DNA from: Marsupella aquatica
Lineage: Eukaryota > Plantae > Marchantiophyta
Direction of reading: 5' to 3'
NCBI GenBank assembly: GCA_973895155.1
Contig: OZ316894.1
Location: 6,222,134-6,286,133, forward strand
DNA: 64,000 nt
Made by a program: the position numbers and the translations under genes. Within the stretch, counting starts at the first letter, position 1; each line of letters starts with the position of its first letter. This document shows, in pieces, positions 13,800-52,785 of this stretch. The notes under the pieces are model-generated. The model worked only from the letters and a program-made list of their open reading frames with translations. It was not told where the DNA came from and did not search any database.

Positions 13800-14510
13800 G
13801 GGTGTGTGTGATGAGATTCGGGATTTTCAAGTCATAAGTTCATTAAGACATCCTACGCGAGCATCGTGTGGCACAATTATGATACAAAAACCCGTGACCG
13901 GGCACCACACCATCATTGTGGCCACAACAGACCCGAGCCATAGGTCGACATGCGCGCCATTGCAGTGAAAGTGAAATTCAGTCCAAGTACACATCTTTCA
14001 CTTTCCGAAGGTCATAATGATCCTAGAGCTGGGTAGTCTGGCCTACACGAGCCTCGTGCGGAAAGTAACTGGAACCAACCAGCTCCAACCTCGCCTATTG
14101 TTCTCCCACAGTCCTCAACCCGACAAAATACATTACGTGTGAATATGGGTTTGTGTGATGAGATCCGGGATTTTCAAGTCATAAGTTGATTATGACATCC
14201 TACGCGAGCCTCGTGTAGCACAATTATGATACAAAAACACCTGTCAGTTTAACCTCAATAACGGAGGAAATTGAGCTCATCCCAAACAAATCTCGTGATC
14301 CGGCACCAAACCATCATTGTGGACACAACGGACACGAGCCAAAGGTCGACATGCGCGCCATTGCAGTGAATGTACACACCTTTCACTTTTCGAAGCTCAA
14401 TATGATCCTCGAGCTAAGTAATCCGGCCTACACGAGCCTTGTGCGGAAAGTGACTGGAAAAAACCAGCTCCAACCTCGCCTATTGTTCTCCCACAATCCT
14501 CAACCCAACA
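13800..14510. repeat. Two imperfect ~350-380-bp direct repeats downstream of the transposase, each with two palindromic motif copies
   Basis: GTGTGATGAGAT.CGGGATTTTCAAGTCATAAGTT...CCAGCTCCAACCTCGCCTATTGTTCTCCCACA starts at ~13806 and ~14153. Confidence 0.85.
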
Positions 14511-14572
14511 ATTAGGACGTGCCGTGCATCGCCAATTGTCTTCCACGCGAGTCTCGCGTCGAGTTAAGGATA

Positions 14573-17032
14573 TTAGTTCTCCTCAATCGTTTCTGTAATG
14601 TAAACCTTCACACTTTCCAAAACTCTCGCTGGAACTTTTACCTTTGCTTTCGCTTTTGATGTCCATCCGGTGATGGTTGAAGTTGCAAGCATCCAATCAT
14701 TCGTGATTGGGGGAATGAGGTAATTGGGATCCCTTTCCCACGTTTGCTTTGAATTAAAGCAGTCCCGATATCTTTCTGATTCGGTTGCCAAACTATTGCG
14801 ATTAAGAGGGTGCCACCATTCAACTTGGAACTCTCCAACACTCGCGTTGTCGGTATCTCTTACGACACAATCGATTGCTTTTGCAAGCCAAAATTGTTGC
14901 GGAATTCTGGTTTCAAATTCATCGGTGGGTCGAATAATAACAAATGTATTCTTTTTAATATCTTCCAGAGGACTAAATCTTGACCTCTCACGCTTAGAAG
15001 GGTGTCCGACAAAGATTGTTTGCCTCTCTTCTTCATCTTCTTGAAGCTCTCTTTCCAGATTATGCATCACCCCGTTGTCTTCGCTTGGGTTGGTATCCAC
15101 ATTCTGACCATACTGACGATACCCAGTTCCATGGTTCGTTCGAGGCCAGAATCCATCAAGTAATGGATAATCTACCCCTGCTAGCGAAGGAGAGCAAAGT
15201 GTATCCTGAAACACAGAAACAATGTTTTCCCAGTATTGAATCTCTGGACTTCGGAGACGATATCCCTCCGATGTAACATCCTTCCATGCAGTCTTCAGCC
15301 ATGAGATATAATGGATCAAGTACTCCAAAATGTCATTCGCCCGCTTGTGAGAAGACTCCATCCGCTTGGAATATGGACGTCCAATTGGAAATTTGTATTG
15401 GTTTCTCTCTGAGTCAAACAACCAAATTGTTTGACCCTTTGTAGGTAGCCAAGACGTATCAATTTTCTCTCGATATTGGTAGACTGGGACATTCTCCTTC
15501 ATTGAGAACAAGAATTGAACAGGTGCTGATTGACCCTGGATCCTTTTGACAAATGGTCCTACATAAGCTTTGTAAGATGCAACTTCGCGGATGAACCTGG
15601 GAACCGGATGTTTCTTCTCGCACTCCCAAACCTCCGCCATTAAACCAAAAAAGGTGGTAAGCTCTCGATTGTAGATCCTTATCCCCACTCTAGAGAAGAA
15701 GGCATCCACATCCTCATGAGTGTGCCCGACCATCAAAAAGAAAAGAGTTACTGACTCAAACACTCCTTTTAGAACAAGCTCGCTATAGAAAGCCAGAACT
15801 GTCTGGTTCTTGTTATCCTTTCCCGAGTTATCAAGTTGAAGGTGGAGGTGTCGAGGAAGCGCCTTGAAGGGTAGGGATGTTGAAGACTCTACGCGACTCT
15901 CATGTGGCACATTATCACCAAGCCCTGCGAAGTGAGCGAGAGAGATCTTTTTGGTTTCGAGGTATCCTACCTCAAAGGCACGCTGATCCAAGAGGGATAC
16001 AAAGATTGGATCTGTGACGTCAGAGGTGTTGAGAGCTAAATCGCCGGTCTTATCTCCCACAAATGATTTGAGATCACAAAATAACTTTGCAAGTGAAGAG
16101 ACTGTAAAATCAGGATCGCTTGCCCACAAACCAGAAAGGGCAAAATGTGCATAAATTCCAGGCTCCCGTCCATGCGTTAACATCCCCGTCAGCGTCATTG
16201 GTAGCGGGATTGATTTGCCTCCTTGGCTCTTGAGTGTAGAAGTCATTTTAGGGATTCCGGTCTTGGCTTGATCCATTTTATCGTGAATCACAGACAAATA
16301 TTTGTCGGGCTCCTGGTCCGCTGCAAGTTTTGCTGCATAGTACATACTCCTGCGTGATTGTTGTTCCAATATATGCCGTTCGTGCTTTGCCTTGATTTCT
16401 AAAATCTTATCCACCCGTTTCTCCCCCCGAAGTGTTTCTTTAATGGTAGTGCAAAGATCGCATTTTGCAAAGTTGCTCCGATCTTGGAATTGGAAATTGG
16501 GGAAATATTTATCCAAAAGCTTGTAGAAGGTTGGGAGAGAGGGCGAATGAATACCCAGGTTTTTGTTAAGCTCGCAAGCCTCTTCAAAAACATCTTTTCT
16601 CCCGTAACTTATTGGAACCCTAAAAACAACTTCCTGCTTGCCTGAAACACCAATTTTGTGAAGATGTGGCATTGGTTCTGCAGATTTCTGCAGGATACTT
16701 TGAATTGATTCTGTGAACAACACAACGTAGTCTTTGGTCTTGATGGTCCCTTCATTCCCATGAACACCAACTTTTGCCCCCTCCATGTATCGTGAATACA
16801 TTGTGTAAAATGTTCCTCGAGAAAATCCATGAATATTCCAAAAAGCTTCCTTGCAGATCCTGCTTCCCTTGAATACAATCATGCCTGAGGCGATGGTTTC
16901 ATCGTCACGACAGTGAAGATGTGAGCACGTAAGTATGTTGCTCAACATGCGATAGACCATAGTACTCTTCCCTAATGTCAGTGACGGTCTCACGGAGTTG
17001 TCGTCGACAACAACTCTGTGAGCAACAATCAA
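14573..17032 (-). CDS. Sola-like DDD transposase core (DUF7869-type motifs)
   Basis: 819-aa ORF with C..C (AKCDLC), IHDKMDQAK, LQLDNSGKDNKN and FLMVGHTHEDVDAFF, giving an RNase H-like D-D-D triad. The N-terminal part continues upstream through frameshifts (16905-17231, 17283-17894). Superfamily assignment is from memory of motifs plus the 4-bp TSD. Confidence 0.8.
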   Translation of the reverse strand: MIVAHRVVVDDNSVRPSLTLGKSTMVYRMLSNILTCSHLHCRDDETIASGMIVFKGSRICKEAFWNIHGFSRGTFYTMYSRYMEGAKVGVHGNEGTIKTKDYVVLFTESIQSILQKSAEPMPHLHKIGVSGKQEVVFRVPISYGRKDVFEEACELNKNLGIHSPSLPTFYKLLDKYFPNFQFQDRSNFAKCDLCTTIKETLRGEKRVDKILEIKAKHERHILEQQSRRSMYYAAKLAADQEPDKYLSVIHDKMDQAKTGIPKMTSTLKSQGGKSIPLPMTLTGMLTHGREPGIYAHFALSGLWASDPDFTVSSLAKLFCDLKSFVGDKTGDLALNTSDVTDPIFVSLLDQRAFEVGYLETKKISLAHFAGLGDNVPHESRVESSTSLPFKALPRHLHLQLDNSGKDNKNQTVLAFYSELVLKGVFESVTLFFLMVGHTHEDVDAFFSRVGIRIYNRELTTFFGLMAEVWECEKKHPVPRFIREVASYKAYVGPFVKRIQGQSAPVQFLFSMKENVPVYQYREKIDTSWLPTKGQTIWLFDSERNQYKFPIGRPYSKRMESSHKRANDILEYLIHYISWLKTAWKDVTSEGYRLRSPEIQYWENIVSVFQDTLCSPSLAGVDYPLLDGFWPRTNHGTGYRQYGQNVDTNPSEDNGVMHNLERELQEDEEERQTIFVGHPSKRERSRFSPLEDIKKNTFVIIRPTDEFETRIPQQFWLAKAIDCVVRDTDNASVGEFQVEWWHPLNRNSLATESERYRDCFNSKQTWERDPNYLIPPITNDWMLATSTITGWTSKAKAKVKVPARVLESVKVYITETIEEN

Positions 17033-17894
17033 CCCGATAAAGAGTATCTATGGACACCCAAGACATCTTTTGATTGCGTCTTTTCTCGAGTCGGTTTCTC
17101 TCCTTCTGGTTTGAATCTTGAGGATTTCTTCGTTGATTGTTATAGCCCCTTTTTGGCTTGATATATGAGAGAATTCTAACTCCCTCATCGTTACCATCAT
17201 TCTGATCTAAAAGATCACTAAGACATTCCATTCCAGGCTCAATCCTAGTTTTGCTGATTGGCCATCGAATTGTGCATGGTGATCAGTCAACAAATTGAGG
17301 GAACATAACTTTTCCCAAGCCAGCTTCAATAGCTAGACTCAAAATATTCACACCAACATGATCTCCCGCATGATCTTCCCCAACTCGCTCGTTGTTAATG
17401 GACGCAAGAGGATGTGGGTTTATGATGCAACCTCTTGCGAGCAAGGTTTCTCCGTCGTCCGCATAGAGAAGGGCAAACTTTTTGAACCATGTGCTACGAT
17501 CTTTCAGATCCTCCGCAAAAACCTCTGTCCCCTCCAGTCTGGTGGCTGATTCAGAATTACCTTCAATATTGTCAACTGGGTCATCAATGACATAAGCTGA
17601 CTCTGTTTGACCTCCAAGATTCATGTCATTTGCATGGCGGACATCTTGCCGATCCCACAAAACAACGGAGTTCACCGACTCTCCTACTAGATCAGCTCCT
17701 GGATGTGGATACGGCAGCTGTGCGAGGTGAAAGAAAGCATTGTCCACCGCCACACTTATCCGTTCTGCTCCAAGCAACACAGAGTGGCAGGTGTCGAAAG
17801 GTAGAACACAAAAAACCTTTCCACCAGCAACTGGTTGTTCATTGATAAGCAAGTGAACGACTTCTCCAGGTAGAAGCTGCGTTCTTGAAGCCAT
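16905..17894 (-). pseudogene. Frameshifted 5' part of the transposase gene with two Tnp1/EnSpm-C-terminal-like (DUF8039-like) modules
   Basis: ORF 17283-17894 contains VAGG.V...CH...LG.....V.V......LPYP.....VGESVNSVVLW and a second partial repeat. ORF 16905-17231 contains CCSQSCC. Splice acceptor (TTTTTTCCTCAG, minus strand) at ~17903. Confidence 0.55.
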
Positions 17895-18049
17895 TTTGGA
17901 TCTGAGGAAAAAATATTACAACAAAAACATCTTTTAAAACATCCTACACGAGGCTCGTGTGAAAATCTCTAACTCGAATGTAAGCAAATATCACAGACCT
18001 GAAAATTCACCTCCAGTTTAAACAAGCAATGAAGAGAAATTTCTATTGT

Positions 18050-18830
18050 ATCTTAGACAAGGGGAACAACACGAGACTCGTGTAGACAATCAAACATCCA
18101 AAATTCAATAGAGATTACTACTGAATACACAATAGTAGGCTCTTGAAACTTCTACACAGAGATGGATATTCTGAAATGCGTATTCTTCTTAGAGAAACTT
18201 TCTATGGAACGTTGTATTTGGATAGACGAGGGGAACAACACGAGGCTCGTGTAGACAATCCAAAGTCCAATATTCAATAGAGATTACGACTGAATACACA
18301 CTAGTAGGCTCTTAAAACTTCTACACAGAGATGGATATTCTGAAATGAGAATTCTTCTTAGAGGAACTTTCTATTGAAAGTTGTATTTGGATAGACGAGG
18401 GGAACAACACGAGGATCGTGTAGACAATCCAAAGTCCAATATTCAATAGAGATTACGACTGAATACACACTAGTAGGCTCTTAAAACTTCTACACAGAGA
18501 TGGATATTCTGAAATGAGAATTCTTCTTAGAGGAACTTTCTATTGAAAGTTGTATTTGGATAGACGAGGGGAACAACACGAGGATCGTGTAGACAATCCA
18601 AAGTCCAATATTCAATAGAGATTACGACTGAATACACACTAGTAGGCTCTTAAAACTTCTACACAGAGATGGATATTCTGAAATGAGAATTCTTCTTAGA
18701 GGAACTTTATATTGAAAGTTGTATTTGGATAGACGAAGGGAACAACACGAGGCTCGTGTAGACAATCAAAAGTCCAAAATTCAATAGAGATTACTACTGA
18801 ATAAACATTAATAGGCTCTTAAAACTTGTA
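18050..18830. repeat. 169-bp tandem array (~4.6 units) in a predicted 5' intron of the transposase gene
   Basis: GAACAACACGAG at 18064, 18233, 18402, 18571 and 18740. Each unit carries an ACACGAG-N-CTCGTGT-type palindrome. Confidence 0.95.
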
Positions 18831-19019
18831 CAGTTAAACGACATCCCAATGGGAAAGACTCAAGCAAATACATTCACATACTGACACAATCACTAAAACA
18901 AAATTGAAAATGACAGGAGCAGTACCTGAAACAACAGAGCACGCTTTAACAAAAGTCCCACCTCGGACTGAAGGCACGAATGAGTCAGATCTCAAACAAT
19001 GACTTGCACGAAGTGGTCT

Positions 19020-19395
19020 GTCACGTTATATAGTGAGTGGGGGTGCGAGAATTTCAGACTTTCAACTCTACCAGATTGTCGTGTAGTACTTTTTTGTGGC
19101 GGCGTGGAGTGTGGTGAGCAGCCATTTCCATAAATGCAGATTGGTTTGGCGGCGGGTGGTGGTTCGCCATGTTAGTGACACGTCCTCCACCAGATCCCGA
19201 GTGTCAGGTTTGGCGGTCGGGTAGCGACCGCAATCATTGTTGCGACCGCAAGGGGTATATGTTGCTTTCCAGCTCGCTGTCGCTCTCATTCTCTTTCTCT
19301 GTCAATCACGCTCTCTCTCGCTCTCTCTCTCTCTCTCACGCTCGGCCCTCAGATTGTTTCACGCTCTTTCACGCTCGCCTCGGACTATAAAAGGA
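19020..19395. promoter_or_regulatory. Putative divergent promoter of the Sola-like element
   Basis: TATATAA on the minus strand at ~19026-19032 points to the transposase, and TATAAAA on the plus strand at 19386 points to the accessory genes. A CT-rich tract lies at 19313-19337. Confidence 0.45.
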
Positions 19396-19496: not shown

Positions 19497-20387
19497 ATGA
19501 CGACTTCTTTGGCAGAAAATGATGCCGGCTTACTTGCTCTGGCTGCATTGAGGAAGCTCAAAGGTAATTCTGACCTGCATTTCTCTGTTTTCTATGGATT
19601 GTGCTAAACTTGAGTCTGCTCTACACGAGAGTCGTGTAGAATGGGTCTCTTTCATCGACCCATACTCTCTATTTGAGAGCCCTTATGTCAGAATTTAGAA
19701 TTTCCTGTTCAGTTCTACGCGAGTCTTGCGTAGACCGTTTCTCCAATCTTGGAAGACAATGGATTTCTACGCGACTATCGTGTAGAAACTCAGGTTCTGT
19801 AGAGTGTTAAATCCTCATTCGGAGGTAGTACCATTTGGAATCAAAACATTGTTCATGTGACTTTGTTCTTTCAACTTTTCTAGAGGGAGGCGCTCATCGC
19901 AAGGACGATTTTGAGAAGATTGAGGGATTGTTGCAAAAAAGTATTTATGCTTTTGATATGAGTTTGATGGAGAATTCCATTCTCCAAAAAGCGTTGGAGG
20001 ATGAAAAGGAAGCAATAGAATACGAGCGGGAGCAGATGTTTGCAAAGTATCGATGGGCACAGATCCAACATTTGACTACTTGCAACGTAGCGGCAAAGTC
20101 CATGAAAGCTTCTCTTGAGATGGAGAAGTTTCGAGATTGTCAAGTTCATGACTTGCGCCAGGAGCTGGCCGATGGCCGAGAGAGGGAAAGACAATTGGAT
20201 ACCAAAGTGCGATGGATTGAATTGGAAAAAAACAATTGTTGCCTTCATGGCCACATGTGTTCGCATACTTTGAGTTAGGGTTCTCTTATGTTTCTAGCGG
20301 ATCAGATTGTTTTCTTAAATCTGGATGTTTTGACTCTGAATGATGATGAGCTCAAATGGCTCATACGACTATCTCCAGAGATCTGAT
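19497..20387 (+). pseudogene. Small spliced coiled-coil accessory ORF of the Sola-like element
   Basis: ATG 19497 MTTSLAENDAG..., donor GTAATT at ~19564, acceptor TTCTAG at ~19883, then the frame of ORF 19835-20278 (coiled-coil, CCLHGHMC), with an in-frame stop at 20276. Confidence 0.4.
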
Positions 20388-20626
20388 AGTCATTTTTTGC
20401 GGGATCATTTACACACCAAAGAGGCCAGAGGTCTGATAGTCATTTTTGCGAGACCGTTTACACGCCAAAGAGGCCATTTTGTAAAGGATGTTTTGACATC
20501 ATTTTGTTTGTAATGAATCAACAGTTTTTCGGCTCACTTTATTTTCTACGCGAGTGTCGTGCAGATGTTTGACATATTTCTCCTTGTCTTCTAGGAGTTC
20601 GCTCTGTTTATTTCCGTTTTGACAGG

Positions 20627-22199
20627 CTTCGCATTGAAACTCCAACGGTCGCAAAACTTCAGAATATTTTGGCGACAGTGAATTCATGGTCTTTTGAATT
20701 GCAACCAGTCAAAGGCAACTACCGTTTGATTGTGAGGGGAGTTAAAACAGAAAATGGACGAAGAAACTTTGTGAGTTTTGGCACTCTCGCAAACTGTACA
20801 AGGTTTGTGTCCCCAAAGGACAACCCATCTCTTCTGCTGACATTGGAGTGTGAGAGTTCTTGGAATTTCAAGCAGATGGTTGCTCCACTTCATGGGTTTT
20901 GCTCAGCACATTGTCTTGAACCTTACAACCAGGACACAAATGTTGTCTCTTGCGGTTTCTTTGATCCTTTAGTGGATAGATGGCTGTCACCTGATTGGGT
21001 CTTTACGGCTGATGAAATAATTCTAGGGCTTGGACGGGTCTCCTATGTCATGAAGCAGTCCAAATTTTTTATCTCTCGGACACGAGAGGTGGATCACATA
21101 ATGCGGATGAAGATCCCAGACGATGACTGGAGGAGAAAGATGACTATTTCTCCGAATGTTGTGTTCATGAAACACTTCAGTGAGACAAAGGTGGAGGAAT
21201 GGATTCGAGAGCATCCAGTAATCCAAGACTTGGTACGCCCAAAGAAGAAAGAAGCTGGTGGAAAAGAGATTGACGATGATGATGGGGAGGGAAAGGACGA
21301 GGATGACTCATCCGCCTCTGGAGAGAGCAAGTCCCATGAAACGATATCAGTCTATGAGACAGAAAATGAGGATGACGGAGAGGAGGGAAGTGTCCAAGAA
21401 GAGAGCAAGAAGACTTTTCAGAATCGGGCGGGGTCAGAGAATGAGTCAGAGTCAACAAGTTTAGAAGGTGCAGTTGAACCAACCAACGATGATGGTGAGA
21501 GTGGGGAAATTCAACAAAATGAGGTCATCCCACCAGCAAAGCCTCCAACAGAGAAGCGATACGCAAATACTGCAAAGGGAGTTTCGCCCAGGAAGGGGAA
21601 AGCTGGTGTCGTGTCAGAGTCATCCACACCCAGTTGGAAGAAAAAAGCAGTGGACAAAAAATCACCATCAGGGAAACTAGGCCGGAAGAAGGTTGATTTT
21701 GAGAAAACAAAAGAAGAAGCTAAACTACCTCGGAAGAGAGTGAGAGTCGTTGATCAAGCAGATGAGCCGCCTGCGGCAAAAACAGGCCGCAAGAAGGTTC
21801 AACGGGAAGAACAAAAAGAAGACAAGAAACCATTTCGAAAGAGAGTTCTTTTTTCTGACCAGCGCGAAGTCGTGCCTCAAGTGAAAGGTGGAAAAAACTT
21901 ATCTTTGATTGATAAACAAGAAGAGGCAACATCTTCTCGGAAGAGAATTCAAGTTGTCGAGGAAGCGCAAGGAATACGAAAATCAAGCAAAGCAAAGAAA
22001 GTCGCTTCACCAGAAAAACCTGAGGAGGAGAAACCGACTCAAAAGTCTCGGGTTGGACAGAAATCTGAGTCGGTCATGAAGAAAGTTGAGAAGGTTGAAC
22101 CGGAGATCAGGACGCTGAAGCGAAAGGGAGTTGTAAAAGATCCTGCACCAAAGGGAAACAAAAAAGCAAAACTTGATGTTGAATCAGTAGTTGTGGAAT
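20627..22199 (+). pseudogene. Accessory gene segment 1 (globular N-terminus, then acidic and Lys-rich region)
   Basis: ORF 20669-22225. It joins in frame to segment 2 when the solo LTR 22200-32028 and one GGAAT are removed (VVE|SRAKPP). Confidence 0.7.
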
Positions 22200-23570
22200 T
22201 GTCACGTCATCGGCTACGGCCTTAACTCAGACTTCAGCTTAGACGGGCACATCCCTCGTAAATCTAAGGGTTCGGGCAGGAAGGGAAGCACGTAATGCAC
22301 CTTATTCTCGTAAACTAGCGCTAAGTGCGCATACTCCTAAATACAGACACCTCCTAGGTATGGTTTGTGTTCCGCTGCCAGAACGTACCTTAGTCGATAG
22401 CAGGATCGACCCCGGCTTAAGGACTTCTAAGCCTTCGTGCTGTCCGCCTTCGATCCGGATTCGATGATACAGGTCCTCAACCCGTGCTCGCAACCACTTA
22501 CCCGCAGGCTGCACCCTGTGCACGTCTCGGGTAGTGCGTTTGGCCTGGCGCTGCCACCCATATACGAGAAACCCACACACATACACGCGCACATGCATAC
22601 AATCTCGATTTACACGAAGGAAAATGATGGGAAAGGATTTTACTACAAAGGGAACATATGCGTACACTTAGTTGACCCGACAGCCCCGGAATGAACAGGT
22701 TCAAGGCCGAGGGTGCACACTACAACGGAGCCCGGCTCCGCACTCGCCCGGCAAGCTTAGTCCTACCTCCTCCCCTTGGTACTCTTTCATTCCCAGAGGT
22801 CGGGACTCCCCGCACATACCGCGGACGCCCAACTTTGCAACTAAAAACCCCCCCCTCTCTCTACCGAGGGGTGCACTAAATACTAAGGGCCGAGGGATGG
22901 GGTGTCCTCTCGCCGAAGATTCACTGACTACGGTCCTAACTAAGCTGACAGTCAGGCCGGAAACGGCTGTGTCTTATTAGAAGATCCTAATCTATGCAGG
23001 CTGGACAACACGGCAGCGATGTTGTACCTAAGGCAGGTGCCTGTCCCAAGAGCCTGACTAAGCTAGTCCTAATCCTACTCTATTCCTACTCCGCCGCTAA
23101 TGCCTGGCACGCTTGCCAGAGCCACCTGAATGGGAGCGGCCATCCCGCTACCTTCGAAGCCTGTCATTGTCCGCCTTGAGGAGCTGGACCTGGTCTAGCA
23201 GAGATTCGTTCTCTCGCCTCGTCGCGTCCGTCTCCTCTACTGCCTCCTGACAAGCCTCCTCCAGCTGCTGGGCGTCACTTGTCAGTTTACCCGCCAGCCG
23301 GTCCTGCTTCTCGGCCTCAGTTTGGAGCCGCGCCACCTCAGCCTGCAGCGTGGCTATCTCCGCAGTGTCCCGCTGGGCCCGTTCCTCGGCCTCCTCCAGG
23401 TCTTTCTGCCAGGTGACAGTTTGATTCTTCAAACTGTCAATCTGGTTCCGGAGTCGTGTAATCTTGGCTTCATTCCCAGCTTTGGCCTGTTCGGCTAGGA
23501 CGGTGTCTGGGGGAAAAATGTGGTTCTTGAGGAAGCACCGGGCCTATGGCTGCTAGTGTCAAGAGAGAAC

Positions 23571-23780: not shown

Positions 23781-23781
23781 C

Positions 23782-42153: not shown

Positions 42154-43291
42154 AGATCACAACTTTGATTGTTGTAGACCTCTAAGGTATGCAGTACGAT
42201 AGGGATCCGAGTGAAGTTGTCCCAAAATTATCGTATGAACTTGAGTTGCCAACAGGTCCCATTAAAAATAAATGCCAGTATTCAAAGTTGTTGTCTGCCT
42301 ATCACTACGCTCTATTGGTAGTTGTGATATCTTGCAAGTACTTCTCTCCTTGTCTTGGCTGTTTTTCATGTGTTGTCAATCTGGTTGCCATGGTGCGTTG
42401 TAAATACTCGAAAGGCTTGAAGTGTGAAGTCTCTCGAAAGGCCTGCCAAAGGTATTCCTCTAGATTGCGATTGGACAGCACTTGAGCAATTGGAAGCTGG
42501 TCGTGGAAGAGCAGGAGTGGAAAACCTGACGCTTGCAATCTTGTAGGTATTTTGGAGCTTGCAGCTCGGCAATCCGGAATTGCACTTGAAATTCTCTTAT
42601 GAATGTCCTACGTGCTTGCATTTTCAATTGCATGCTGAATTGTTTTTTCTGTCATGTTTTTGCCTGTTCTTCCCTGCCTTGCTATATTGTCACTTGCATG
42701 TGGTTATAAGGTTATGTGGCCTCCTAGTGGTGATTATTTAGCCATCTATAAGCTCCATTGATCTTGTAACTCGTCAACATTCTTTCATTCCCCTCACGGC
42801 CTCCAATGCACCCACAATGTTGCTCTTGAACTCCATTGCCTCCTTAGCTCCTAAAACCCCTATTGCATGCGCTAAACCTGTAGACAATGTCCTTGGCCCG
42901 CTTCATGTAATAGACAGTGAATGCCTGCGAAACCTCAGCTTCCTTCCTCACTGTTACTGTCTGTCTAGTACCTTTAAGACACAGTTTTAATTCTCTGAGC
43001 CCTTAATTCCAATGTTGTTACTCGGGCAGGGACTGACTACATCCCTTTAACATTGAGAGAGACATATGAACCTGGGGAGATGCAATATGATGAGGTTGAT
43101 GATGTGCAATAGGCAGCGGCTGAAGATTCACTTTGATGAGGTTGAGGATGACTACATGCACATAGTCACAGAACGGGAATTGCTTCCCGAAATGATGTTT
43201 TGGTCATGTCCATATGCATGAAATTGATTGATACTTTGAATTTAGTGTGCTCATTTAGCCTGGGTTTGGTTGTGGATGCTATGCAGAAACT

Positions 43292-46200
43292 ATGGGGGAA
43301 GAGGGTGAAGACATGGAGACAGACATGGGGCTTGGAGAGTGGGGTGAAGAGGAAAGATTAGATATGGATGGACATCCAGATGCAGGGGGCTCACAGAAAA
43401 ATGCACCTGTGCAGGATGCACAGGGCCCTGATCAAGTGCTAGGTAGGTGGGCAGCCAGAGAGAAATCACGTAATCCATACCCTAGAAGGAGCCAAAGTTA
43501 TTGGCAAGGGACGCCTGATGATTATGATGATGACTACGATGGAGCAGAAGATGGATGGGGTGAATATGAATGCCCAGAGCGTGGTAGAGATGGGTACAGA
43601 GGGCAATGGAAAGATCAGGAGGATGATTGGACAAGTAAGTGCTTTGTGCTAGTGATTTTGTGATGGTAGTAGAAATTGTAGCTCAATATGGAATTATCTG
43701 ATATCTAGGGCAAAGAGTGTATCTAACCGGTCCATGAGTGTGGCATGTGCCTGTTGGTGAATGCAGACTCTGATTGGGACAATCACGAAAACAACAAAGG
43801 CCATCCACGTTCAGATAGGAGGCAATCATTCACAGGCAGGAGAAACGGCCCTAATTCATCAAGACAAGGCAATTGGACAGATGGTCCAGAACCATCTATG
43901 CGCCCAGGGAGAGGTAACTTGGTCATTGCAAAATTGCTCTGAAGCTCAGTGTATATTTGGCAGCAAAATTTATGCTTCATACTTAAAAAATGGTTCACGT
44001 AAATGTGCAGGGACTCCACGGAGGTTTGCACAATGCGCTCTAGGCCGTGGTGCAGGCCGTGGGGGCCCAGGCCGTGGGGGGACACCAGGCCATGGAGGGA
44101 CACCTAGTAGCGCTTCAGGGAGTACCAAGGCAGGAGACAGTAACAAATTTGGTAAAGTAGAAGTGAATTCCGATGGTTGGATAACTCCCACATGTGATGG
44201 TAAGAACCGCTGGCATTCTAACTTGAGAGGAGAAGTATTGCACTGGTTAGATTTGAGCATTACAGAGTTTAGGAGTCAGAACAAAGCCGATTGGGCTACT
44301 ATTTGCAAGGACATTCTTGAACGGTGGGAGTATGTTGGTAATAATGGTAAGGGCCCAGTTGAAGATTGCATATCAGATTATGCAATGAGGATTTTGAAAC
44401 AAGAGAGACATAGGTTGAAAAGGATGTGGATAGACAATGGTTCTAACAGGAGAATGCCAGCACCCCCATCATTGGAACTGGATCAATGGACACGGTTAAT
44501 CAAAGGGTTCATGTCAGAGGCTGGGCAGAGCAAGAGTGAACTGATGTCAAATGCTCGAGGCAAAGTGAAACACCTTTCACAGGCTGGGAGAGGAAGTTAT
44601 GCTCCAGTGAAAGAACAACTGGTAAGGCATGTCTGATAGTAAGCGTAGCCTATCACTAATCATCTTGCTACTATTATTGCATTTTCATTGACAATCAACA
44701 GTTGCTTTAATTCATATGTATGTTGATGTGGCATACAGAAGAAATTGACAGGTGAAGAACCATCAGCACAAGAAGTGAGAGAGGAGTTCATGAAACAAAG
44801 GAGTGAGGTGACAAGTGTGACTTCCAAACAGGTGATTATGTTGTAATTCTGTGATGTTCGATAGCATCAGAAGGAAATGTAGTAGAAAGTAAGCAACCAG
44901 TTCTTGGGGACAGTTATCTGAGATATGTAAGTTGTGTGATTACAGGGAACTGTTACAACTCTTGCAGAGATGTGTGAACGGTTGAAGTCATTAGAGTGTG
45001 GACTTCCTCGAGTGGAAAGTAAATTGGGTGATCGTTTGGATATTTTGGAGGCATCTGTAGCAAACCTACTTGCATCAGTGGAATCTAATTTCAAGCTTGT
45101 GATTGAGAAATTGGGTGGTTCTCAGCCAAACAATGAGGGCAACCTTGTACAAAGTGTGCCCTTGTTAACAAAAAAGGGAATTGGCAAATCTGACACAGGT
45201 ATGGAAATGACACCGGCCCATTGTTCATTGTGTCCTATGTTCAAATATTAGAAGTGGGTTTTCATGAATTGAGTGAATGGTTTGAATGCAGGAAGAGTGG
45301 AGGCATCGAAGGGCCCTGTAATCAGTAAGCAGAAGGGCAAGAAGGTTGTTGAGATAGGTAACCTGCTATGATCCAGTAGATTACATTTGAAAAGTGCATG
45401 GAGTTTTGTGAAGCTTAAGCCGATTGGAGGTAATCTTTTCTGTAAGAACTGGTTGGATCAACTGGGATCTGAAGTGACATCATGATTAACTTGCTTCAGG
45501 TGACTCAAAGAGCAATAATGAAAAGGATGTGCCCAGTGCCTCAGTGACCATAGCCAAGGAGGTATCAGGTAAGCTGATGCTTTAAATTCCTCTATATGAA
45601 TGTTGAGAGACAATTCAATGGTTAATAGATTCAACCTGAATATTGTGGTGTGTTTATTGATCAGCAGAAGCAGACATGGAGGATATGGCAATGGCAAAGA
45701 AGGGGAAGAAGGTTGTTCATAATGGTAAGGAGATAGTGACAACTTTGTGGTTGGTGACATGTACATGTAGCACATGTGATGAGTGATTCACTTATGTTGG
45801 ACAATGGCACTGAATTGTAGTTGATGCAGAGTTGTCAGACTCTCAACCAAGTGGGAGCAGGGTGAAGCGACGTCGAAATTTGGGAGCAACATTGGATGCA
45901 AGTAAGATTGTAGATGCTTCAATTGAAGCAAGTACAATGTTGGCATATACTGAGATGATGTCGCAGGGAAATCCTACTACACAATCGGAAGTGTCAAATA
46001 TGGATGCAGATTCTTTGAAGAAGAGTGTAGCCAATTCTCGATCACCAGCACAAAACACTCGTGCCAAAGTCATGACTCGCAACCAAGGTATGAATAATGT
46101 CATGTATAAGCCACCCAAGAAAGCCAAGAAAAACAGCCAGGGTAAGGTGGAGGTGATAGCCATAGCAGAGCCAGTCCATAATCTTCAATCATGGGAGGAT

Positions 46201-46425
46201 GACTCATAGGTATGTGTGGGTACAGGCATTTTGTGACCGGATCATGCTAAATTCCATGGCAAAATGGTCCCCGATGACCATGTGGTAGTGTTGTTGACTA
46301 TAGTGATTGTATCTGATTGTAATTTGCCATTTCCGAATAGAGATGATGATCCACCTCAGGAAATAATTGCAGATGTAGTAGGATCTCTTGTGCTCTGGCC
46401 ATCAGAGTGTGTTAGTCTGCAGTGA
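43292..46425 (+). pseudogene. CACTA TnpA-like multi-exon gene (Ptta/En/Spm-type and Tnp1-type domains), degraded
   Basis: ORF 43761-44636 contains DQWTRLIKGFMSEAGQSKSELMSNARGKVKHLSQAGRGSY. The 3' exon reads CVGTG...FHGKMVP...VVV......LPFPNRDDDPPQEIIADVVGSLVLWP* with internal stops. Confidence 0.75.
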
Positions 46426-47194
46426 CTGAATGCAAGTGTAGATAGAACCATGTGAATTGTGTTACATTTTGACATTGCCTTGGAAAGATCCAAGAAATAT
46501 CTGTACCAATTTTTCCATTTGGTAAAGAGGATGACGGATTCGTTATCATTATGTGTGACATGTATATATTTCTGAATTCTGTGTGTATGTATGAAACAAG
46601 TGATTGATGTCAAACTATGGCTGTAAGGTGACCATTGGATGATACTAGAATCTGTTTTGTATCATTTCAATATTAGTGTGTATGGTAGTTTCATGCTTTG
46701 TGACCTTATAGAGTGAGTTCATTTACAGTACACAAAAAAACATGAATGGAATGTCTTATTTGTGCACATTCCAAGTAGTATAGTGGGGTCTTCATCACTC
46801 ATTTCGAGTTGACATGAAAGACTTATACATACCCCACTAAGTATCTCCTTTAGTCGTTTTATAGACCCACAAAGTAAACTTAAAGACTACCCTCCATAAC
46901 CTGTTTAGTCCTTCCCAACAACTCACCATCGCACCCCTTAAAAGACTGAAAATGACTCACCAAAGCTACCCAAACAAAGACTACAATAGACTGAAAATCC
47001 AGTCTGTTAAACGACTCGTGAACCAGTTCTATAAAGGACTCAGTTGATTATAGTAACAAAACATACGACTCACAGTCCTATAAAGGACTGGAGTCCTATA
47101 AAGGACTGGAGTCCTTCCCAGTCATTTCCGAGTCCTATACGGTACTACATAGTCGTTTAATGGGGTCTAAATACCCCCCGGTTTCTACTAGTTG

Positions 47195-48174
47195 CTCGCG
47201 TCTGCTGATCCTCCTTTTGATTCGGCTAGCTGCAAGGAGTCAATATTGGCATCTCTAGCCATTGTTGATTTGACCCATACTGGAAAACCGGTTTGGATGT
47301 AGTCCAAAATCTTGAACTTCTTGAAGATCGTCGTGAATATCCCAACAAATGATCTGGTAACAGTTGTTTTTGTTCGTCCTGGTATTATTCTTGCAAGAAT
47401 AATTGAAGCTGTTCGAGATCTCCCGGAGAACTATAATGCGCACCTTGAATATGGTTCGTTCATGAGGAGTTCTATGGTTAATGCTCCTTCGCAACACATG
47501 AGAGGCGATGCGGACATGGTTCTTTTCCTTGGCGTCTCCCAAGATTGGGTTCTTGACTGGGAAAAGCATTTCAAGGATTTTACCGGTCACTTTGTGTTGG
47601 AGGAGTCCGACCTCGAGGAGACAATCAAGCCAGTCGAGAGGATTATTCCGATATTTCGAAGGATGATATGCAGGAGAAAAAAGGGACACATTGATCTCAC
47701 GACTTGAAGGCCTTGTTCCTTTCAAATTGACGACTGGACGGCCATTCACATTGAATATTAAGCCCAGTCGCATCCTACAGAGTTTTATTCATGCATTTTC
47801 TTCGAGGGAGGAAATTGTCCTGGATTTTTTCACAGGAGGGCAGGTACTGAAGAATGCATTGATGCTTGAGCGTGAGTGTTTTTCATTCTGCTCTGACCGT
47901 GAGGATGTCTCTGACCTCACGGCTTATGCAGAGAATCTTAAATTGTTAGTTCCGGTTGCACAGTTTGCCAAATCATTGTGGAAACCTCCTGGCCTTGAAG
48001 GGAGTTCGACTCAGAACTCCAATGCTAGTGGAGCAAAAGAGGGCCAGCATTATCAGATTGCCGGTACAGTTTTACATTACGCCGGGGTGGAAGCGGAGGA
48101 AAAGTTTCTAAGTTCCATTGGGGAGATGAGTATTGGTCCATCAGTCGTTCCAATTGCAAGTCGCGAAGGATTTC
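47195..48174 (+). pseudogene. Accessory gene segment 3: amino-DNA-methyltransferase-like (beta-class motif order), degraded
   Basis: DPPF at 47207-47218 (motif IV-like). KPSRILQSFIHAFSSREEIVLDFFTGG at 47760-47840 resembles KP..L...LI...S..GD.VLDPF.GSG (motifs X and I). One stop (~47300) and one frameshift (~47700). Confidence 0.55.
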
Positions 48175-51100
48175 TGTCGCACCCCTACCCTGGGCCTTAA
48201 ATCCGGGTTAGTGTCGTGGTGCGACCTCGACCACCAGTAGGGGTGAGGGTTCGGGCAAGGAGGTGTGTAGTGACCTTCAATAGCCCTAAGTCGGGCTAAG
48301 CTGCTATACTTACTGGTATAACACTCGCATAATTCGTACTTGTCATAGGTATATTTATTTTCCACCGCTGGAATTTTCCCTCAGTTAGTGACGCGGACTA
48401 ACTCCCGACTTGGGGCTTTTCAAGCCATCGACGTGATAGGACCTTGTGACATGCAATGAGTGGCAATCCCTACCATTAGTCCGCACCCGGTACGTCCCTT
48501 AAAATGGCGCCTTTGCCCGGACAAAGCATACACACAACACCAGTTACTCTCAGAGACATTAAGGGGAAAAGACTACATTTACTTAGCGAAGCATCAGTTT
48601 ACATGGTTGACTCGACTTCAAAGGGGGTCAGCAGGCCCAACGGCAGTCGATGCCCAGTCTCTACGAGGCCCTGCCTCACACTTGCCCAGCAAGCTCGACT
48701 CTGGCTCTCACTCCTTGGTACGCTCTGACCCTACTCAGGCCGGGACTCCCCGTGCCTCGCCTTTCTTCTGCTGAGATAACTAAGCCTTCTCCCCCTTCCC
48801 ATCGCGGAAGGGGAAGCCTAAATACTACCATAGCGGAAGAGAACCGGAGGATACTACCTTCCGGGGTACTACCTACTGACTAACTAACTGCTGACTACCG
48901 GTCGCGCTGTACTGACCGGTTGACCGTCGACTACGAGTGTGCCAACCGGAATGGCAGCGGCCAAGCCTATTGACAAACTCTAGTCCGTTGATGGACTCAA
49001 TCCTACGTTGGCTGATCCTAACTGACCGGCCCTAATTCTTCCTACTGCCGCTAATCAGTGCCTAATGACAGTCATTCTGTCGTTACGCCTAACTAAAAGA
49101 TGCCGCTGACTTAACCGCCTCGCGCGGCGCCTGCTTCTGCCCTTCGCTAACTACCCCTTTCGTGTGTGTAGTGGTTGGACCAGGGCTGGTCCCCTTGTCG
49201 GGGCGAGACCTCGAGCCGCCTTGATCAGAGGTGGGCCCAGGTTTTCCCCGCTGGAGGACGAGCAGGGTGACGCGGTCCTGCAAAGCCTTGTTGTCCCGTA
49301 ATGCTTCCTCCGCCTCGTTTGCAGCTTCGTCGGCTTCAGTCTGGAGCCGCGCCACCTCCAAGTTGAGCTGGTCGATGGCGTCGCGATGGACCTGGTCCTG
49401 CGCTAGCAATTTATCTCGTTCGGCAGAGAGACTAGCCACCTGTTGTGCTGCCTGCAGGAATTGTTTGTTGAGGTCGGTCAGGCTGGTAACCCGAGCCAAA
49501 GATTCTGAGCGTAATTGAAGCACGGTGTCGTCCAGCTTCTTGAGTTTGGCCTGCGCTCCGCTTAACTCTTGGGTTAGTCCGTCCCTCTGTTCAACAGTGC
49601 GGACTAAATCCTCACGGCGGGTCGTTGCCTCCTCCTCGAGGTGCTCTACCAGCATCTGGAGACGCCCGATCTCATTCCCCTTCGCCATGAGTTCTTCTTC
49701 CAAGCGGCTGACGATCCGTGGTTGGTGCTCTAACATGAAGAAGGATGGTTGAAAGTACGCCGAGACTTGTTGTCCGATGTATGTCGCCAACTCCCCAGAC
49801 ATAGTCTGGCTAAACTTCTGGACCAGGTCGTAGGCCATGGTCCCCGGGGCTACTTGGTAGTCCTCCATCCTCTCGGGTACCGGTGGTTCCTCGGCAGGGG
49901 CAATGAGCTCCTCCGTAGTCAGCGCTGGGGAGGGGAAGGTTTCTTCAGGTGGTGGAGGGATTGGGGGTGGTTGTACTGCAGGTAGCGGAGGCTCAACGGA
50001 AGGAGGCGGTGGAATTTCCACAGGGGGCGGTTGCAAAGTATTAGTCGGGGCTTCCGGCTCGGGGTTTGTCCGAGGGACAGTAGTTCGCGTAGTCGGGGTT
50101 GCCTCCTCTGGGGCGGGGGTGACATTACCCGGGGCTGAAGTGGCCGTATTCTTTCCTCTGGCCTCCCGCCGTGCCTTGTACCAGGCGAGGATAATGGCGA
50201 TATGACTCCCCAAGTAAGTCTTCCCTCCAATAGCCATACCACCCTGAGCCCGCTTCAGCTCCCCCGAGAATCTTCGGTAGAAGAATTGGGCCCAGTTTCA
50301 TCGTTTGTACTGTTCCACCTGCACTATCGTGCAGAGGGAAATCTCGGATCATGGCTCAATCATGTGTAGGGTAGTCCGTATGAAGTTAAGCCGCTCCATA
50401 CAGGTTAAGTTGGTGCACGCCCCCTGCTTGTATCCGTTGTCCGTCTTACCCTCGGGTTTGAAGTGCCGCGGCGTATACTCCTTATCCCAAATTCGGATTT
50501 CCACCGGCACCGGCCCGGTTGGTAGGCCGAAAATTTGCGTTAACCGATGCTCCGTGAGTGATAAGGTCTGCCCCGAAACCTTGGTGGTTGACGCATCAGT
50601 GTCGAAATTGGAGATGAACTCACAAATCTCCTTCGGGCCGGCGGCACACGGCCTCCATAGTAAGTGGGCGAACCGCTCCAACTGATGCTCCTTGAGATAG
50701 TCCGCATGTTCGAGTTTCTTGATCGCGATCTAGACTACCTCGGGGACGCGGATTACCTGTAATAAGTTGGACTTCGGGTTATCCGGGGGCCGTCAGGTCT
50801 GGTTGGTCGGGGGGTTTGCCGGGGCAGGCGCAGGCGCGGCGTCGGTCCGTGTTGATTCGGGGGCCATCGTAGTCCTTGACCGCTTACGAGGACGCTATTC
50901 GAGTTGCAGACTAGCTCGCTCGGAACCCAAAGAACACTCCGCGTTGATTACTAGACGGACTTGGGACTGGTTCGGCGGTACTCCGGTGGTCATCGGTTGA
51001 GGCGCTGGGGTAGCCATATCCCAGTTGAAGGCGTTGGAGCTTTCCCCGAGGAACGTGAGATTACGCGCCGCTTCCCATTGTCTGCTGATGTCTTCTTGGC

Positions 51101-52012
51101 GCTTTTCGGCTGCGATCTGCTGGTCTAGGTACCCCAGAATCTTGTCGAACTCCGCTTGAGTAAGCCGCTGGTTGCCCTTCAGCTTAAAGAACTTAGCTGG
51201 AACCTCAAGAATCGCCTCTGCTACCGATCTAAGCCCTTCCTTGCTGAGATATAGTTCGGTGATGTAGTCTCGCAGCTCGTTATAGCTAGAATCCCTGGTG
51301 ATGGCTGTCCTTTCGCAATTAACCAGTGCTACCTTGGTTACCAGCTTTGCGTACCTTCGTTCGTAAGCGGCTTTCTAGGGGCAAGAGTACCAGTAAGTTT
51401 CGGAGAACTTAGCACCTACCTCGCCAAACAAGGTCCAAAATCCCAAGGCGATGAGGGTCATACTAACCTCGTAGTCCGGTTTGTTGCGTCCACGTTCCCA
51501 CCTGGCTGGTCCTTTTACGCGGAGGCCTCGCTCGTCCTGACTAAATCTTGCCACATTCCGCTCTTCTCCCTCGATAATTTCCTCGTAAAGGTCGACTGGA
51601 TTCAATCAAAAAGGCGAGCGGATGGCAGCGTCCGTGAATTCCAAAAAGGTAAACGTGAGCGAATGGCCCGCAATGCCATCGGCTCCTCTCTTATGGGGGT
51701 GCCCGGACGAGCCCGAGCGTGAGAAGGTCAGGCCGTTTGGTCATTGATAACGAGCTGAAGTCGGCGTCTCGGTCCAAGCGTGATTCTTCTAACTGATTTT
51801 TACTCCGCTGCCGCCACCGTACCTCGGTCATGCGTAATAATCCCTTTCCTGAACTCGTAATTATTCGGTTATCTTAACCTACTCCTAATCTAATCATAAT
51901 GGCAACTTGACGGCTATACGTGCTATTCTACGCTATGGCTACGGTCCTAATGACCGTATAAGTCCTAATCTACGACCTGGGTTCGGTCAAGTGACACGTT
52001 ACCCGTGTCACA
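48175..52012 (-). mobile_element. Giant solo LTR 3 (3838 bp, TG...CA, TSD ATTTC)
   Basis: ATTTC|TGTCGCAC at 48170-48182 and GTGTCACA|ATTTC at 52005-52017. Removing it restores the reading frame REGF|PLVMAE. Confidence 0.88.
49089..51605 (-). pseudogene. Degraded LTR-borne gene homologous to those in solo LTRs 1 and 2
   Basis: Fragments 51375-51605, 50349-50681 (FAHLLW...EICEFISNFD...SLTEHRLTQIFGLPTG...DNGY...CT...ERLNF) and 49089-50237 (Pro-rich region plus coiled coil). Confidence 0.72.
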
Positions 52013-52017
52013 ATTTC

Positions 52018-52670
52018 CTCTTGTAATGGCTGAAGGAGGTTATGGTTTGGCAGATAATTCTGAAAACTTACAGGCGGGCACGGGGTTGATTGCATTCAAC
52101 AAAAATCTGGAAGATGTTGTGGATGATGTCTCCCTACACACGTATCGTGTAGATCCTCCAGGGTTAGAGTGCAACAGAGGTGTTGAGCAATCTCTTCTGG
52201 TTGATGCTTTAGTTCTTCGAAGTGGCCCAATTTTTGATGATTGTGAGGCAAAAAATACACTCGAGGATGTCGAGAAGGGGGTGGTGGATTGTGGACCCTT
52301 AAAAGAGATTGTTGTGGAGGAGGTTGGGATTGTGGAAAAAGATCACACTCCGATTGAATTTCAATGCGATGACAATGTTGACTCTCGTAGCACTGAAGTA
52401 ATAGGAGAGAATGATAACTCATTTTCTCTCACAGCAAATCCAGAGGTGTCAGAGAGGCGAGTCGATCGTGCGGAGGCAACCAATGAGGCAGGTGCCAATT
52501 TCCTCTCTCTTGTCTCAAGTCATAAAGTTCTAAGCATAAACAAATGTCCTCTCCCATCTCCGGATCCAATGGATAACAAAATGAGGATTGACAATTGCCT
52601 CAGTGATGTTTTGGATCAGGATGCGGTTCTAGTTAGGACTAATGGGTGCCTAATAACTCGTGGACAATGA
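52018..52670 (+). pseudogene. Accessory gene segment 4 (acidic linker)
   Basis: ORF 52005-52670 continues segment 3 in frame after the LTR is removed. Confidence 0.55.
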
Positions 52671-52785
52671 TTTCTGCGCAAGACGCGTGTAGAGGGATAC
52701 AGACGGGGTATTTGATTTCAAGTGGTCTTTGGTCAAGACTGTTGCAATGACTAACCATCCGGACTCGATATTTTTATGTTTGCAG

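What the first reader, a model, noticed from the sequence alone, without database searches (positions are those of the whole stretch)
13853..52692. Element-specific 19-bp palindrome CTACRCGAG-N-CTCGYGTAG dispersed through introns and spacers (parS-like or VANC-target-like)
Seen at about 13853, 14043, 14200, 14428, 14543, 15889, 17944, 18067, 18236, 18405, 18574, 18743, 19621, 19715, 19767, 20546, 32863 and 52674. All copies lie in Sola-like DNA, and I saw none in the nested LTR or CACTA inserts or outside the TIRs. Copies fall inside short predicted introns (~19564-19883, ~32846-32948, ~52630-52785) whose flanks are otherwise unrelated, which suggests selection for the motif itself. It is CpG-rich, so binding could be methylation-sensitive. 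Inference: a dimeric binding site for an element-encoded protein.
Basis: partly seen in the sequence, partly recalled or inferred. Interest (0 to 1): 0.85.

Follow-up and report, generated by a model that had tools for sequence, protein, structure and literature searches.

The report
Plant transposon's private palindromic docking sites
A broken 15-kb jumping gene, likely from a liverwort, carries 20 copies of one mirror-image DNA word almost only in its non-coding parts, which likely are docking sites for a protein it encodes that is predicted to fold like bacterial ParB; this design was already proposed for seaweed transposons but is untested.

Summary
The motif is better written CTACRCGA-N3-TCGYGTAG. 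All lie in the 14,976-bp body of a Sola-like transposon (11973-54171, 25-bp imperfect TIRs, TSD CCTT); none lie in the other 49 kb. Eighteen are non-coding and two sit in variable coding stretches. None is within 1.4 kb of an end, where a different A/T-rich repeat lies. The opposite-strand cargo gene has a predicted ParB/Noc fold (pLDDT 92), a degenerate N6/N4-methylase part and a degenerate NIF phosphatase part. This copy is dead. Best reading (0.6): binding sites for the ParB-like protein, a VANC-like self-recognition system; binding is untested. Main rival (0.2): the transposase, because distant Sola-like loci carry their own different palindrome and only 1 of 80 shows a ParB-like remnant. 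Protection from methylation is not shown: all four motif variants among copies are CpG transitions. The design is proposed in print for Ectocarpus Sola1-1 and Bostrychia Plavaka, and this scan reported it many times on other DNA of this genome.

The parts
11969..11972 (+). left 4-bp target-site duplication CCTT
   Evidence: same 4 bases at 54172-54175
11973..11997 (+). left imperfect 25-bp TIR; left end of the element
   Evidence: a low-depth junction contig ends at 12002 (30 bases in) and a high-depth contig starts matching at 11973
12010..12150 (+). A/T-rich subterminal repeats (TTTGGAAATT-like), distinct from the palindrome
   Evidence: 5 hits in the first 250 bp
13161..13652 (-). 164-aa open frame of unknown role downstream of the transposase
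   Evidence: no Pfam hit
13853..14561 (.). five palindrome copies (13853, 14043, 14200, 14428, 14543) behind the transposase stop; two pairs lie in duplicated segments
14573..17894 (-). Sola-like transposase gene (DUF7869), split over three frames in this copy
15889..15907 (.). palindrome copy inside the transposase frame, in a gapped, poorly conserved linker
17902..18925 (-). inferred 5'-UTR intron of the transposase gene, holding copy 17944 and the 169-bp array with copies 18067, 18236, 18405, 18574, 18743
   Evidence: GT/AG signals read from the sequence; array; no RNA data
19026..19392 (.). inferred divergent promoter: TATA-like boxes at 19026-19032 (-) and 19386-19392 (+), with palindrome copy 19068 about 35 bp upstream of the first
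   Evidence: sequence
19498..22199 (+). 5' part of the cargo gene(s): short exons, then a long exon with a lysine/glutamate-rich tail
19564..19883 (+). inferred intron with copies 19621, 19715, 19767
20546..20564 (.). palindrome copy in a second inferred intron (about 20280-20595)
22200..32029 (.). nested insert A (TG...CA ends, 5-bp duplication GGAAT), no firm motif copy; itself holds a TIR element at 26852-31130
   Evidence: one contig reads the empty site (loose end at 22199)
32035..32851 (+). cargo exon with the ParB-like N-domain (SGQHS motif)
32863..32881 (.). palindrome copy in the inferred intron just after the ParB-like exon
   Evidence: many homologous frames stop matching at the same place
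32949..33586 (+). helical region after the ParB-like domain (candidate DNA-reading domain), with a stop and a frameshift
33587..47194 (.). nested CACTA element, no motif
47195..48200 (+). N6/N4 DNA-methylase-like region; IVDLTH at the inferred catalytic site; stop and frameshift
   Evidence: (PF01555 E 0.0014, below cut-off)
48211..51990 (.). nested insert C (ends approximate, no duplication found), no motif
52134..52152 (.). palindrome copy in an acidic, family-less open frame
52674..52692 (.). degenerate palindrome copy in the inferred intron before the phosphatase exon
   Evidence: 19.5 bits leave-one-out
52786..53670 (+). NIF (FCP1-like) phosphatase-like exon, frameshifted, DxDxT motif not intact
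   Evidence: (PF03031 E 1.9e-15)
54002..54145 (+). A/T-rich subterminal repeats at the right end
   Evidence: 6 hits in the last 250 bp
54147..54171 (-). right imperfect TIR; right end of the element
54172..54175 (+). right target-site duplication CCTT

Best explanation
The 20 palindromes are likely binding sites for a dimer of the element's own cargo protein, which is predicted to have a ParB-type fold and would let the transposon family recognise its own copies and keep them transcribable. Shown: the sites, their confinement to the element, their bias to non-coding DNA, their spread by local duplication, and a cargo gene opposite the transposase with ParB-like, methylase-like and phosphatase-like parts. 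Predicted: the ParB/Noc fold, and more weakly a following helical domain placed like the HTH domain of ParB and KorB. Inferred: each 8-bp arm is read by one subunit; the densest clusters (the transposase's 5'-UTR intron, the shared promoter, the first cargo intron, the spacer behind the transposase) load the protein around both genes; the outcome is activation or anti-silencing, as with VANC. The methylase part likely does not methylate DNA, as its catalytic motif is degenerate. This copy is dead and could only be acted on in trans.
For: 20 of 20 firm copies in 14,976 bp and 0 in 49,024 bp. Only 2 of 21 candidates lie in coding DNA, which makes up 63% of the element (p 7e-7; 2 of 15 contexts, p 1e-4, counts include the later rejected 13085). 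The copy in the transposase lies in a gapped linker. No copy is within 1,497 bp of an end, and the ends carry a different repeat. ParB-like model: pLDDT 92.4; Foldseek top hits Noc and ParB, E 3e-4 to 4e-3; VIA Z 8.9 to PadC and 8.6 to KorB, rmsd under 3. A Riccia homologue aligns on through the helical region to KorB (199 residues, rmsd 5.5, Z 7.5). Most related contigs have the consensus C at 19727, where the window copy departs from the palindrome, and one contig shows an extra motif copy behind 19796. Duplicated segments differ at 2 of 64 motif bases against 49 of 456 others (p 0.034 one-sided, 0.069 two-sided). Distant Sola-like loci lack this word and have a different one.
Against: No binding data. 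Many distant Sola-like loci carry their own palindrome (225 hits against 1-5 shuffled), yet only 1 of 80 shows a ParB-like remnant (L060), and L058 is a 4.6-kb element with six copies and no room for cargo. Among copies in intron 1, motif bases vary no less than the rest (4 of 48 against 13 of 283, p 0.29), and all four changes are CpG transitions, so the sites are not visibly protected. CpG retention in the element (mostly 0.58-0.78) exceeds flanking transposon DNA (0.38-0.44) but not inserts A and C (0.75-1.11). The ParB arginine motif is altered (G-Q-H-S), and the HTH match is weak.
Confidence: 0.6

Rival explanations
1. The palindromes are binding sites for the Sola transposase (or its N-terminal domain), used for synapsis or for self-activation of transcription.
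For: A different palindrome, TRGTGGCCACYA, flanks the transposase in several AT-rich Sola-like groups where no ParB-like gene was detected, often within about 1.5 kb of it and near the TIRs. Arabidopsis AtMu1c transposase alone binds its TIRs and hypomethylates cognate copies (10.64898/2026.08.24.746577, section 7 read).
Against: Here no copy is within 1,497 bp of an end, and the ends have their own repeat. Copies sit in introns of the cargo gene far from the ends. One AT-rich locus does hold a decayed ParB-like gene head-to-head with its transposase (L060), so supply in trans is possible there.
Confidence: 0.2
2. The word is a site for a host transcription factor or chromatin protein that the element has accumulated to be expressed, for example in germ cells.
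For: Clusters lie at the inferred promoter and first introns. No genome was available to see whether host genes carry it.
Against: A 16-base palindrome is long for a plant transcription-factor site (own knowledge). It is absent from the host PLC gene and from the other transposons of the window. Related families use a different word.
Confidence: 0.08
3. The copies are neutral: a tiny mobile palindrome (micro-MITE) or a by-product of local duplication and hairpin-driven copying.
For: Nine of 20 copies lie in duplicated or tandem segments. All 6 half-asymmetric contexts point the same way (p 0.03), which fits copying from one template. One context has a 7-bp direct repeat four bases out on each side. 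Conservation among copies is not significant.
Against: Flanks of the 14 contexts are unrelated, there is no consistent TSD, and no copy lies in 49 kb of neighbouring DNA that includes the nested inserts. Neutral copying does not explain a word kept in introns spread over 11.6 kb of element sequence.
Confidence: 0.08
4. The motif acts as an RNA hairpin or a splicing signal in the element's transcripts.
For: Intron 1 folds well (z -5.15), and each copy can form an 8-bp stem.
Against: The folding follows from the palindromes themselves. Copies lie upstream of the inferred transcription start and on both transcribed strands. The G5/T15 pairing would be a G-U wobble on + strand transcripts but an A-C mismatch at 14200 and 15889, which lie on the minus-strand side. 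No Rfam match.
Confidence: 0.04

Closest known systems
Sola1-1_Ec32 of Ectocarpus and its ParB-like/N4C-N6A methyltransferase accessory gene (PMC12477816; passages, supplement rows; figures and sequence files not seen)
   Same: Giant Sola-type element with 4-bp TSD; accessory gene on the strand opposite the transposase with ParB-like and amino-methylase domains; proposed to bind and modify its own element.
   Different: Brown alga against a likely liverwort. 'palindrom' occurs 0 times in that paper's main text and no binding word is given in what I saw. Here the methylase motif is degenerate, a NIF phosphatase-like exon follows, and TIRs are 25 bp against 282 bp. The two proteins were not compared.
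PAG3 of Bostrychia Plavaka elements (10.1101/2025.02.11.637652; passages; supplements closed)
   Same: ParB-like accessory protein with inverted-repeat units beside its gene, proposed as self-binding sites.
   Different: Another superfamily; ParB is fused to a 2OG oxygenase; the repeats are described as tandem arrays next to the gene, not as single copies in introns across the element.
VANC proteins and target motifs of Arabidopsis VANDAL elements (PMC5735166; passages)
   Same: Family-specific motif in introns, intergenic and other non-coding regions, multiplied by tandem duplication with gain and loss among copies.
   Different: VANC binding and hypomethylation are shown by experiment. 'palindrom' occurs 0 times in that paper. 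No VANC-type Pfam hit among the 29 frames scanned here. VANDAL is a Mutator-type element (recalled).
Bacterial ParB/parS, Noc/NBS and KorB/operator systems (PMC8494293; passages)
   Same: Predicted ParB N-domain fold; a palindromic site of similar size.
   Different: No ParA-like frame found; the arginine of the CTP-binding motif is replaced; the word occurs at only 5 single sites in GTDB genomes; no partition role is plausible in a plant transposon.

Membership tests
Sola (Sola1) DNA transposon | 4-bp target-site duplication | tested here: met
   CCTT on both sides; left end confirmed by contigs
Sola (Sola1) DNA transposon | AWWT target preference (PMC3845634 passages) | tested here: not met
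   TSD is CCTT at this one site; the Ectocarpus family is also described with another bias; related locus L017 has ATAT
Sola (Sola1) DNA transposon | terminal inverted repeats | tested here: met
   25-bp imperfect pair 11973-11997 / 54147-54171
Sola (Sola1) DNA transposon | transposase related to named Sola transposases | tested here: inconclusive
ParABS (ParB/parS) | ParB/Srx N-terminal fold | tested here: met
   (predicted model)
ParABS (ParB/parS) | GxxR CTP-binding motif (consensus recalled) | tested here: not met
   family has G-Q-H-S at this place
ParABS (ParB/parS) | HTH middle domain that reads the site | tested here: inconclusive
   helical domain after ParB-N in a Riccia homologue, pLDDT about 60-95; aligns to KorB and pNOB8 ParB at rmsd 5.5
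ParABS (ParB/parS) | ParA ATPase partner | tested here: not met
   no such Pfam hit among 29 frames scanned
ParABS (ParB/parS) | specific binding of the palindrome | not testable with these tools
   needs EMSA, DAP-seq or ChIP
VANC/VANDAL anti-silencing system | motif concentrated in non-coding regions of the cognate element | tested here: met
VANC/VANDAL anti-silencing system | motif multiplied by tandem duplication, with gain or loss among copies | tested here: met
   169-bp array and two duplicated segments; one contig with an extra copy
VANC/VANDAL anti-silencing system | VANC-homologous protein | tested here: not met
   no such Pfam hit; the candidate reader has a ParB fold
VANC/VANDAL anti-silencing system | protein-dependent loss of DNA methylation | not testable with these tools
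   CpG proxies were inconclusive
Sola1-1_Ec32-type ParB-methylase accessory gene | ParB-like plus N6/N4 methylase gene opposite the transposase | tested here: met
   the methylase Pfam score is below its cut-off
N6A/N4C DNA methyltransferase | (D/N/S)PP(Y/F) catalytic motif after the strand of motif IV (consensus recalled) | tested here: not met
   IVDLTH here; IIDTTH, VFVDLAR and VFADFAR at the matching place in P0128, P0134 and P0124, matched by eye. An ADPPF 18 residues upstream, beside the CACTA junction, lines up with a linker by eye, so this is not certain
micro-MITE | consistent TSD and copies outside the host element | tested here: not met
   whole genome not available

The most novel reading that the evidence does not exclude
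Land-plant transposons run a eukaryotic ParB/parS-type self-recognition system. A catalytically disarmed ParB-methylase-phosphatase protein loads as a dimer on a family-private palindrome, spreads along its own element like a bacterial sliding clamp and shields it from host methylation, with protein and palindrome diverging together family by family. That would be a second anti-silencing system, independent of VANC, with a definable 16-base code.
Probability: 0.3. Interest if true: 0.8.

Novelty: new variant of a known kind. Interest (0 to 1): 0.5.

Why it matters
[quoted passage not shown] The algal ParB-accessory idea is a proposal with no defined target word in the passages I saw. This element gives an exact candidate site, a candidate reader and a second family with a different word, so the proposal can be tested with one binding assay. 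If it holds, it is a new sequence-specific route for escaping silencing in land plants and a possible tool for targeted epigenome work. The interest is tempered: the design is already in print for algae, this copy is dead, the binder is not identified, and the scan has reported the same arrangement many times in this genome.

Tried and rejected
No whole genome was held, so no genome-wide motif scan. No RNA holder was listed, so all introns are inferred. Candidate copy 13085 was rejected. TIRs starting at the CACTA-like word at 11984 were rejected, as no duplication fits them. Word-index searches with the ParB-like exon (longer proteins) and with P0124 found no relatives. A sequence search of PDB chains with the ParB-like profile found nothing significant, and Pfam gave only a weak DndB hit in 2 of 50 members. 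The Atlas listed unnamed clusters and DUF3723 on 31% of one cluster's members: a lead only. The homodimer prediction gave no verdict (score 0.00, controls not folded). The locus search of viral contigs with the ParB-like alignment could not run. The exact motif gave 0 hits in viral contigs and 5 single sites in GTDB genomes. No Rfam hit. The methylase part of the P0124 model is low-confidence (pLDDT mostly under 50) and was not used. Sequence look-ups in earlier findings gave nothing relevant. Literature searches. None listed a paper describing such palindromes in land-plant Sola elements; subscription papers and bioRxiv supplements were not searchable. PMC4738411 passages mention ParB-HTH methylase fusions in chlorophytes and chytrids, not this system.


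Full report
OBSERVATION. All 18 listed positions appear at 3 mismatches or fewer. The two bases beside the centre are loose, so the word is CTACRCGA-N3-TCGYGTAG. Leave-one-out scoring keeps 14 of 15 contexts, adds 19068 (14.0 bits, borderline) and 52134 (20.5 bits), and rejects 13085. The best score outside the element is about 13 bits, at 22516 in insert A. The total is 20 copies. Nine lie in duplicated DNA (13853/14200, 14043/14428 and the five-copy 169-bp array). Flanks of the remaining contexts share under 45% identity.

THE ELEMENT. It runs from 11973 to 54171, with imperfect 25-bp TIRs and a CCTT duplication. In public contigs a low-depth junction contig stops 30 bases inside the left end and depth rises several-fold inside. 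This suggests a family of very roughly ten near-identical copies, though the tool warns that depth is no copy number. Three inserts (22200-32029, 33587-47194, about 48211-51990) leave 14,976 bp of element body; one contig reads the empty site of the first. The minus strand holds a DUF7869 transposase; the named proteins among its 59 listed homologues are from Riccia sorocarpa and Calypogeia fissa, so the host is likely a liverwort. The plus strand holds a spliced cargo region: a low-complexity exon, a ParB-like exon, a helical exon, an N6/N4-methylase-like part (PF01555, E 0.0014, below cut-off) and a NIF phosphatase-like exon (E 1.9e-15). Stops, frameshifts and inserts show that this copy is dead. 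Homologues with ParB-like plus methylase or NIF parts exist in Riccia and Adiantum (P0127, P0128). Whether all parts form one protein is inferred.

WHERE THE MOTIF SITS. All 20 copies are in the element body. Only 15889 and 52134 are in coding DNA, which is 63% of the body by my inferred exon map (p 7e-7 for 2 of 21, p 1e-4 for 2 of 15 contexts, with 13085 still counted). Copy 15889 falls in a gapped linker of the transposase alignment. Six copies lie in an inferred 5'-UTR intron of the transposase and one beside its TATA-like box. Six lie in four inferred cargo introns, and five lie behind the transposase stop. The nearest copy to an end is 1,497 bp away. Both ends carry a different A/T-rich repeat, with 5 and 6 hits in 250 bp against 18 in the 14,476-bp interior.

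IS IT UNDER SELECTION? The evidence is mixed. Duplicated segments differ at 2 of 64 motif bases and 49 of 456 other bases (p 0.034 one-sided, 0.069 two-sided; four of eight comparisons pooled as independent). In intron 1, contigs of four runs show 17 variable places: 4 of 48 motif bases and 13 of 283 others (p 0.29). All four motif changes are at CpG; 0 of 30 non-CpG motif bases vary against 12 of 277 elsewhere (p 0.62). At 19727 nearly all depth reads C, giving a perfect palindrome, so the window's T is private decay. One contig carries a further motif copy behind 19796, so copy number changes by local duplication. Motif CpGs therefore mutate like methylated DNA in at least some copies; protection is not shown. 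CpG ratios in the element (0.58-0.78, 0.41 in the last 500 bp) exceed flanking transposon DNA (0.38-0.44) but not inserts A and C (0.75-1.11), so age confounds this.

THE CANDIDATE READER. The exon at 32231-32851 has 83 relatives at E 0.001 or better. Its model has pLDDT 92.4. Foldseek's first seven hits are Noc, ParB and PadC (best E 3.2e-4, TM 0.34-0.40). The independent aligner gives Z 8.9 to PadC (98 residues, rmsd 2.8) and 8.6 to KorB. The family has G-Q-H-S where ParB has GxxR (ParB consensus recalled), so CTP clamp chemistry cannot be assumed. In a Riccia homologue the next helical region aligns over the middle domain of KorB and pNOB8 ParB, at rmsd 5.5 and Z 7.5-7.7: suggestive only. 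In bacteria the HTH of that middle domain reads parS (PMC8494293, passages). The methylase part has IVDLTH at the likely catalytic site, and homologues also lack PPY there (matched by eye).

CONTROLS IN RELATED ELEMENTS. Eighty metagenome loci with distant transposases (the best 80 of 487) have no match to this motif at 3 mismatches in 739,641 bp. A de novo palindrome search recovered the motif as the top hit in the window's element and found a different word, TRGTGGCCACYA, in AT-rich loci: 225 hits at 1 mismatch against 1-5 in shuffles, across several transposase clusters. Some loci are the same site assembled twice, so 225 overstates independence. L017 is an 11.3-kb TIR element with an ATAT duplication, NIF cargo and a dense array between cargo and transposase, the same layout as here. 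A family-private palindrome is thus a wider trait of these elements. But only L060 of the 80 loci shows a ParB-like remnant (E 0.0024 against 0.29 for reversed sequences; 1e-5 when read through with X at hand-chosen breaks), and L058 is a 4.6-kb element with six copies and no cargo. Many loci are short or cut, so absence is weak, and supply in trans is possible. This is the main reason the transposase keeps 0.2. A 2026 preprint shows that a transposase alone can activate and hypomethylate its own family through TIR binding (section 7 read).

WHAT IS KNOWN. A ParB-like/amino-methylase gene opposite the transposase is described for Ectocarpus Sola1-1_Ec32 and proposed to bind and modify its own element (PMC12477816, passages and supplement rows). 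Bostrychia Plavaka PAG3 is ParB-like, with inverted-repeat arrays beside it (passages). VANC motifs sit in non-coding regions and multiply by tandem duplication (PMC5735166, passages). The system works like VANC and resembles ParB/parS, but is a member of neither. My eight literature searches listed no description of such palindromes in land-plant Sola elements. Earlier notes of this scan report the same arrangement many times in this genome, also on Mutator and Helitron elements. Those notes are unchecked and are not counted as evidence.

VERDICT. A real, element-confined cis motif; likely the binding site of the element's ParB-like protein (0.6), with the transposase as the main rival (0.2). 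New variant of a known kind; interest 0.5.

Noticed in passing
L017:1202-12482 (same site in L022, L024); also L058, L078, L047, L042, L032 and others: AT-rich Sola-like elements carry their own palindrome TRGTGGCCACYA. L017 has about 30 copies, 36-bp TIRs, an ATAT duplication and at least two NIF phosphatase-like cargo remnants, but no detectable ParB-like gene.
   Followed up: partly
L060:about 400-800 (minus strand): Decayed ParB-like gene about 8 kb upstream of, and head-to-head with, a Sola-like transposase.
   Followed up: partly
window 26852-31130: AT-rich element with 65-bp TIRs and no long frame, nested in insert A. It has its own palindrome (TTACTAGCGCC-N-GG-N-GCTAGTAA type) in a 116-bp tandem array plus scattered half-sites; no encoded reader.
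   Followed up: partly
window 11973-12222 and 53922-54171: A/T-rich subterminal repeat in the same orientation at both ends of the element, unlike the TIRs; possible transposase site.
   Followed up: partly
window motif copies 14200, 15889, 19767, 20546, 32863, 52674: All six contexts with unequal arms have G at position 5 and T at position 15 on the + strand, whichever strand is transcribed (p 0.03): polarity or a common template.
   Followed up: partly
window 10891-11972 and 54172-56400: The flanks resemble parts of the nested CACTA element, so the Sola-like element likely landed in an older CACTA relative.
   Followed up: partly
window about 41560-41760: Short frame inside the nested CACTA that looks like a captured Sm/snRNP-E gene fragment (recognised from recall; not confirmed by a search).
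   Followed up: no
window 3834-about 7800: Host phosphoinositide phospholipase C gene (EF-hand-like and PI-PLC-X hits).
   Followed up: no
window 22200-32029, 35900-40400, 48211-51990: GC-rich inserts with related minus-strand coiled-coil frames and no gag-pol hit among the frames scanned; insert A has TG...CA ends and a 5-bp duplication but no LTR pair was found.
   Followed up: no
window 13161-13652 (-): 164-aa open frame inside the element, downstream of the transposase and of the five-copy cluster; possibly a third gene.
   Followed up: no
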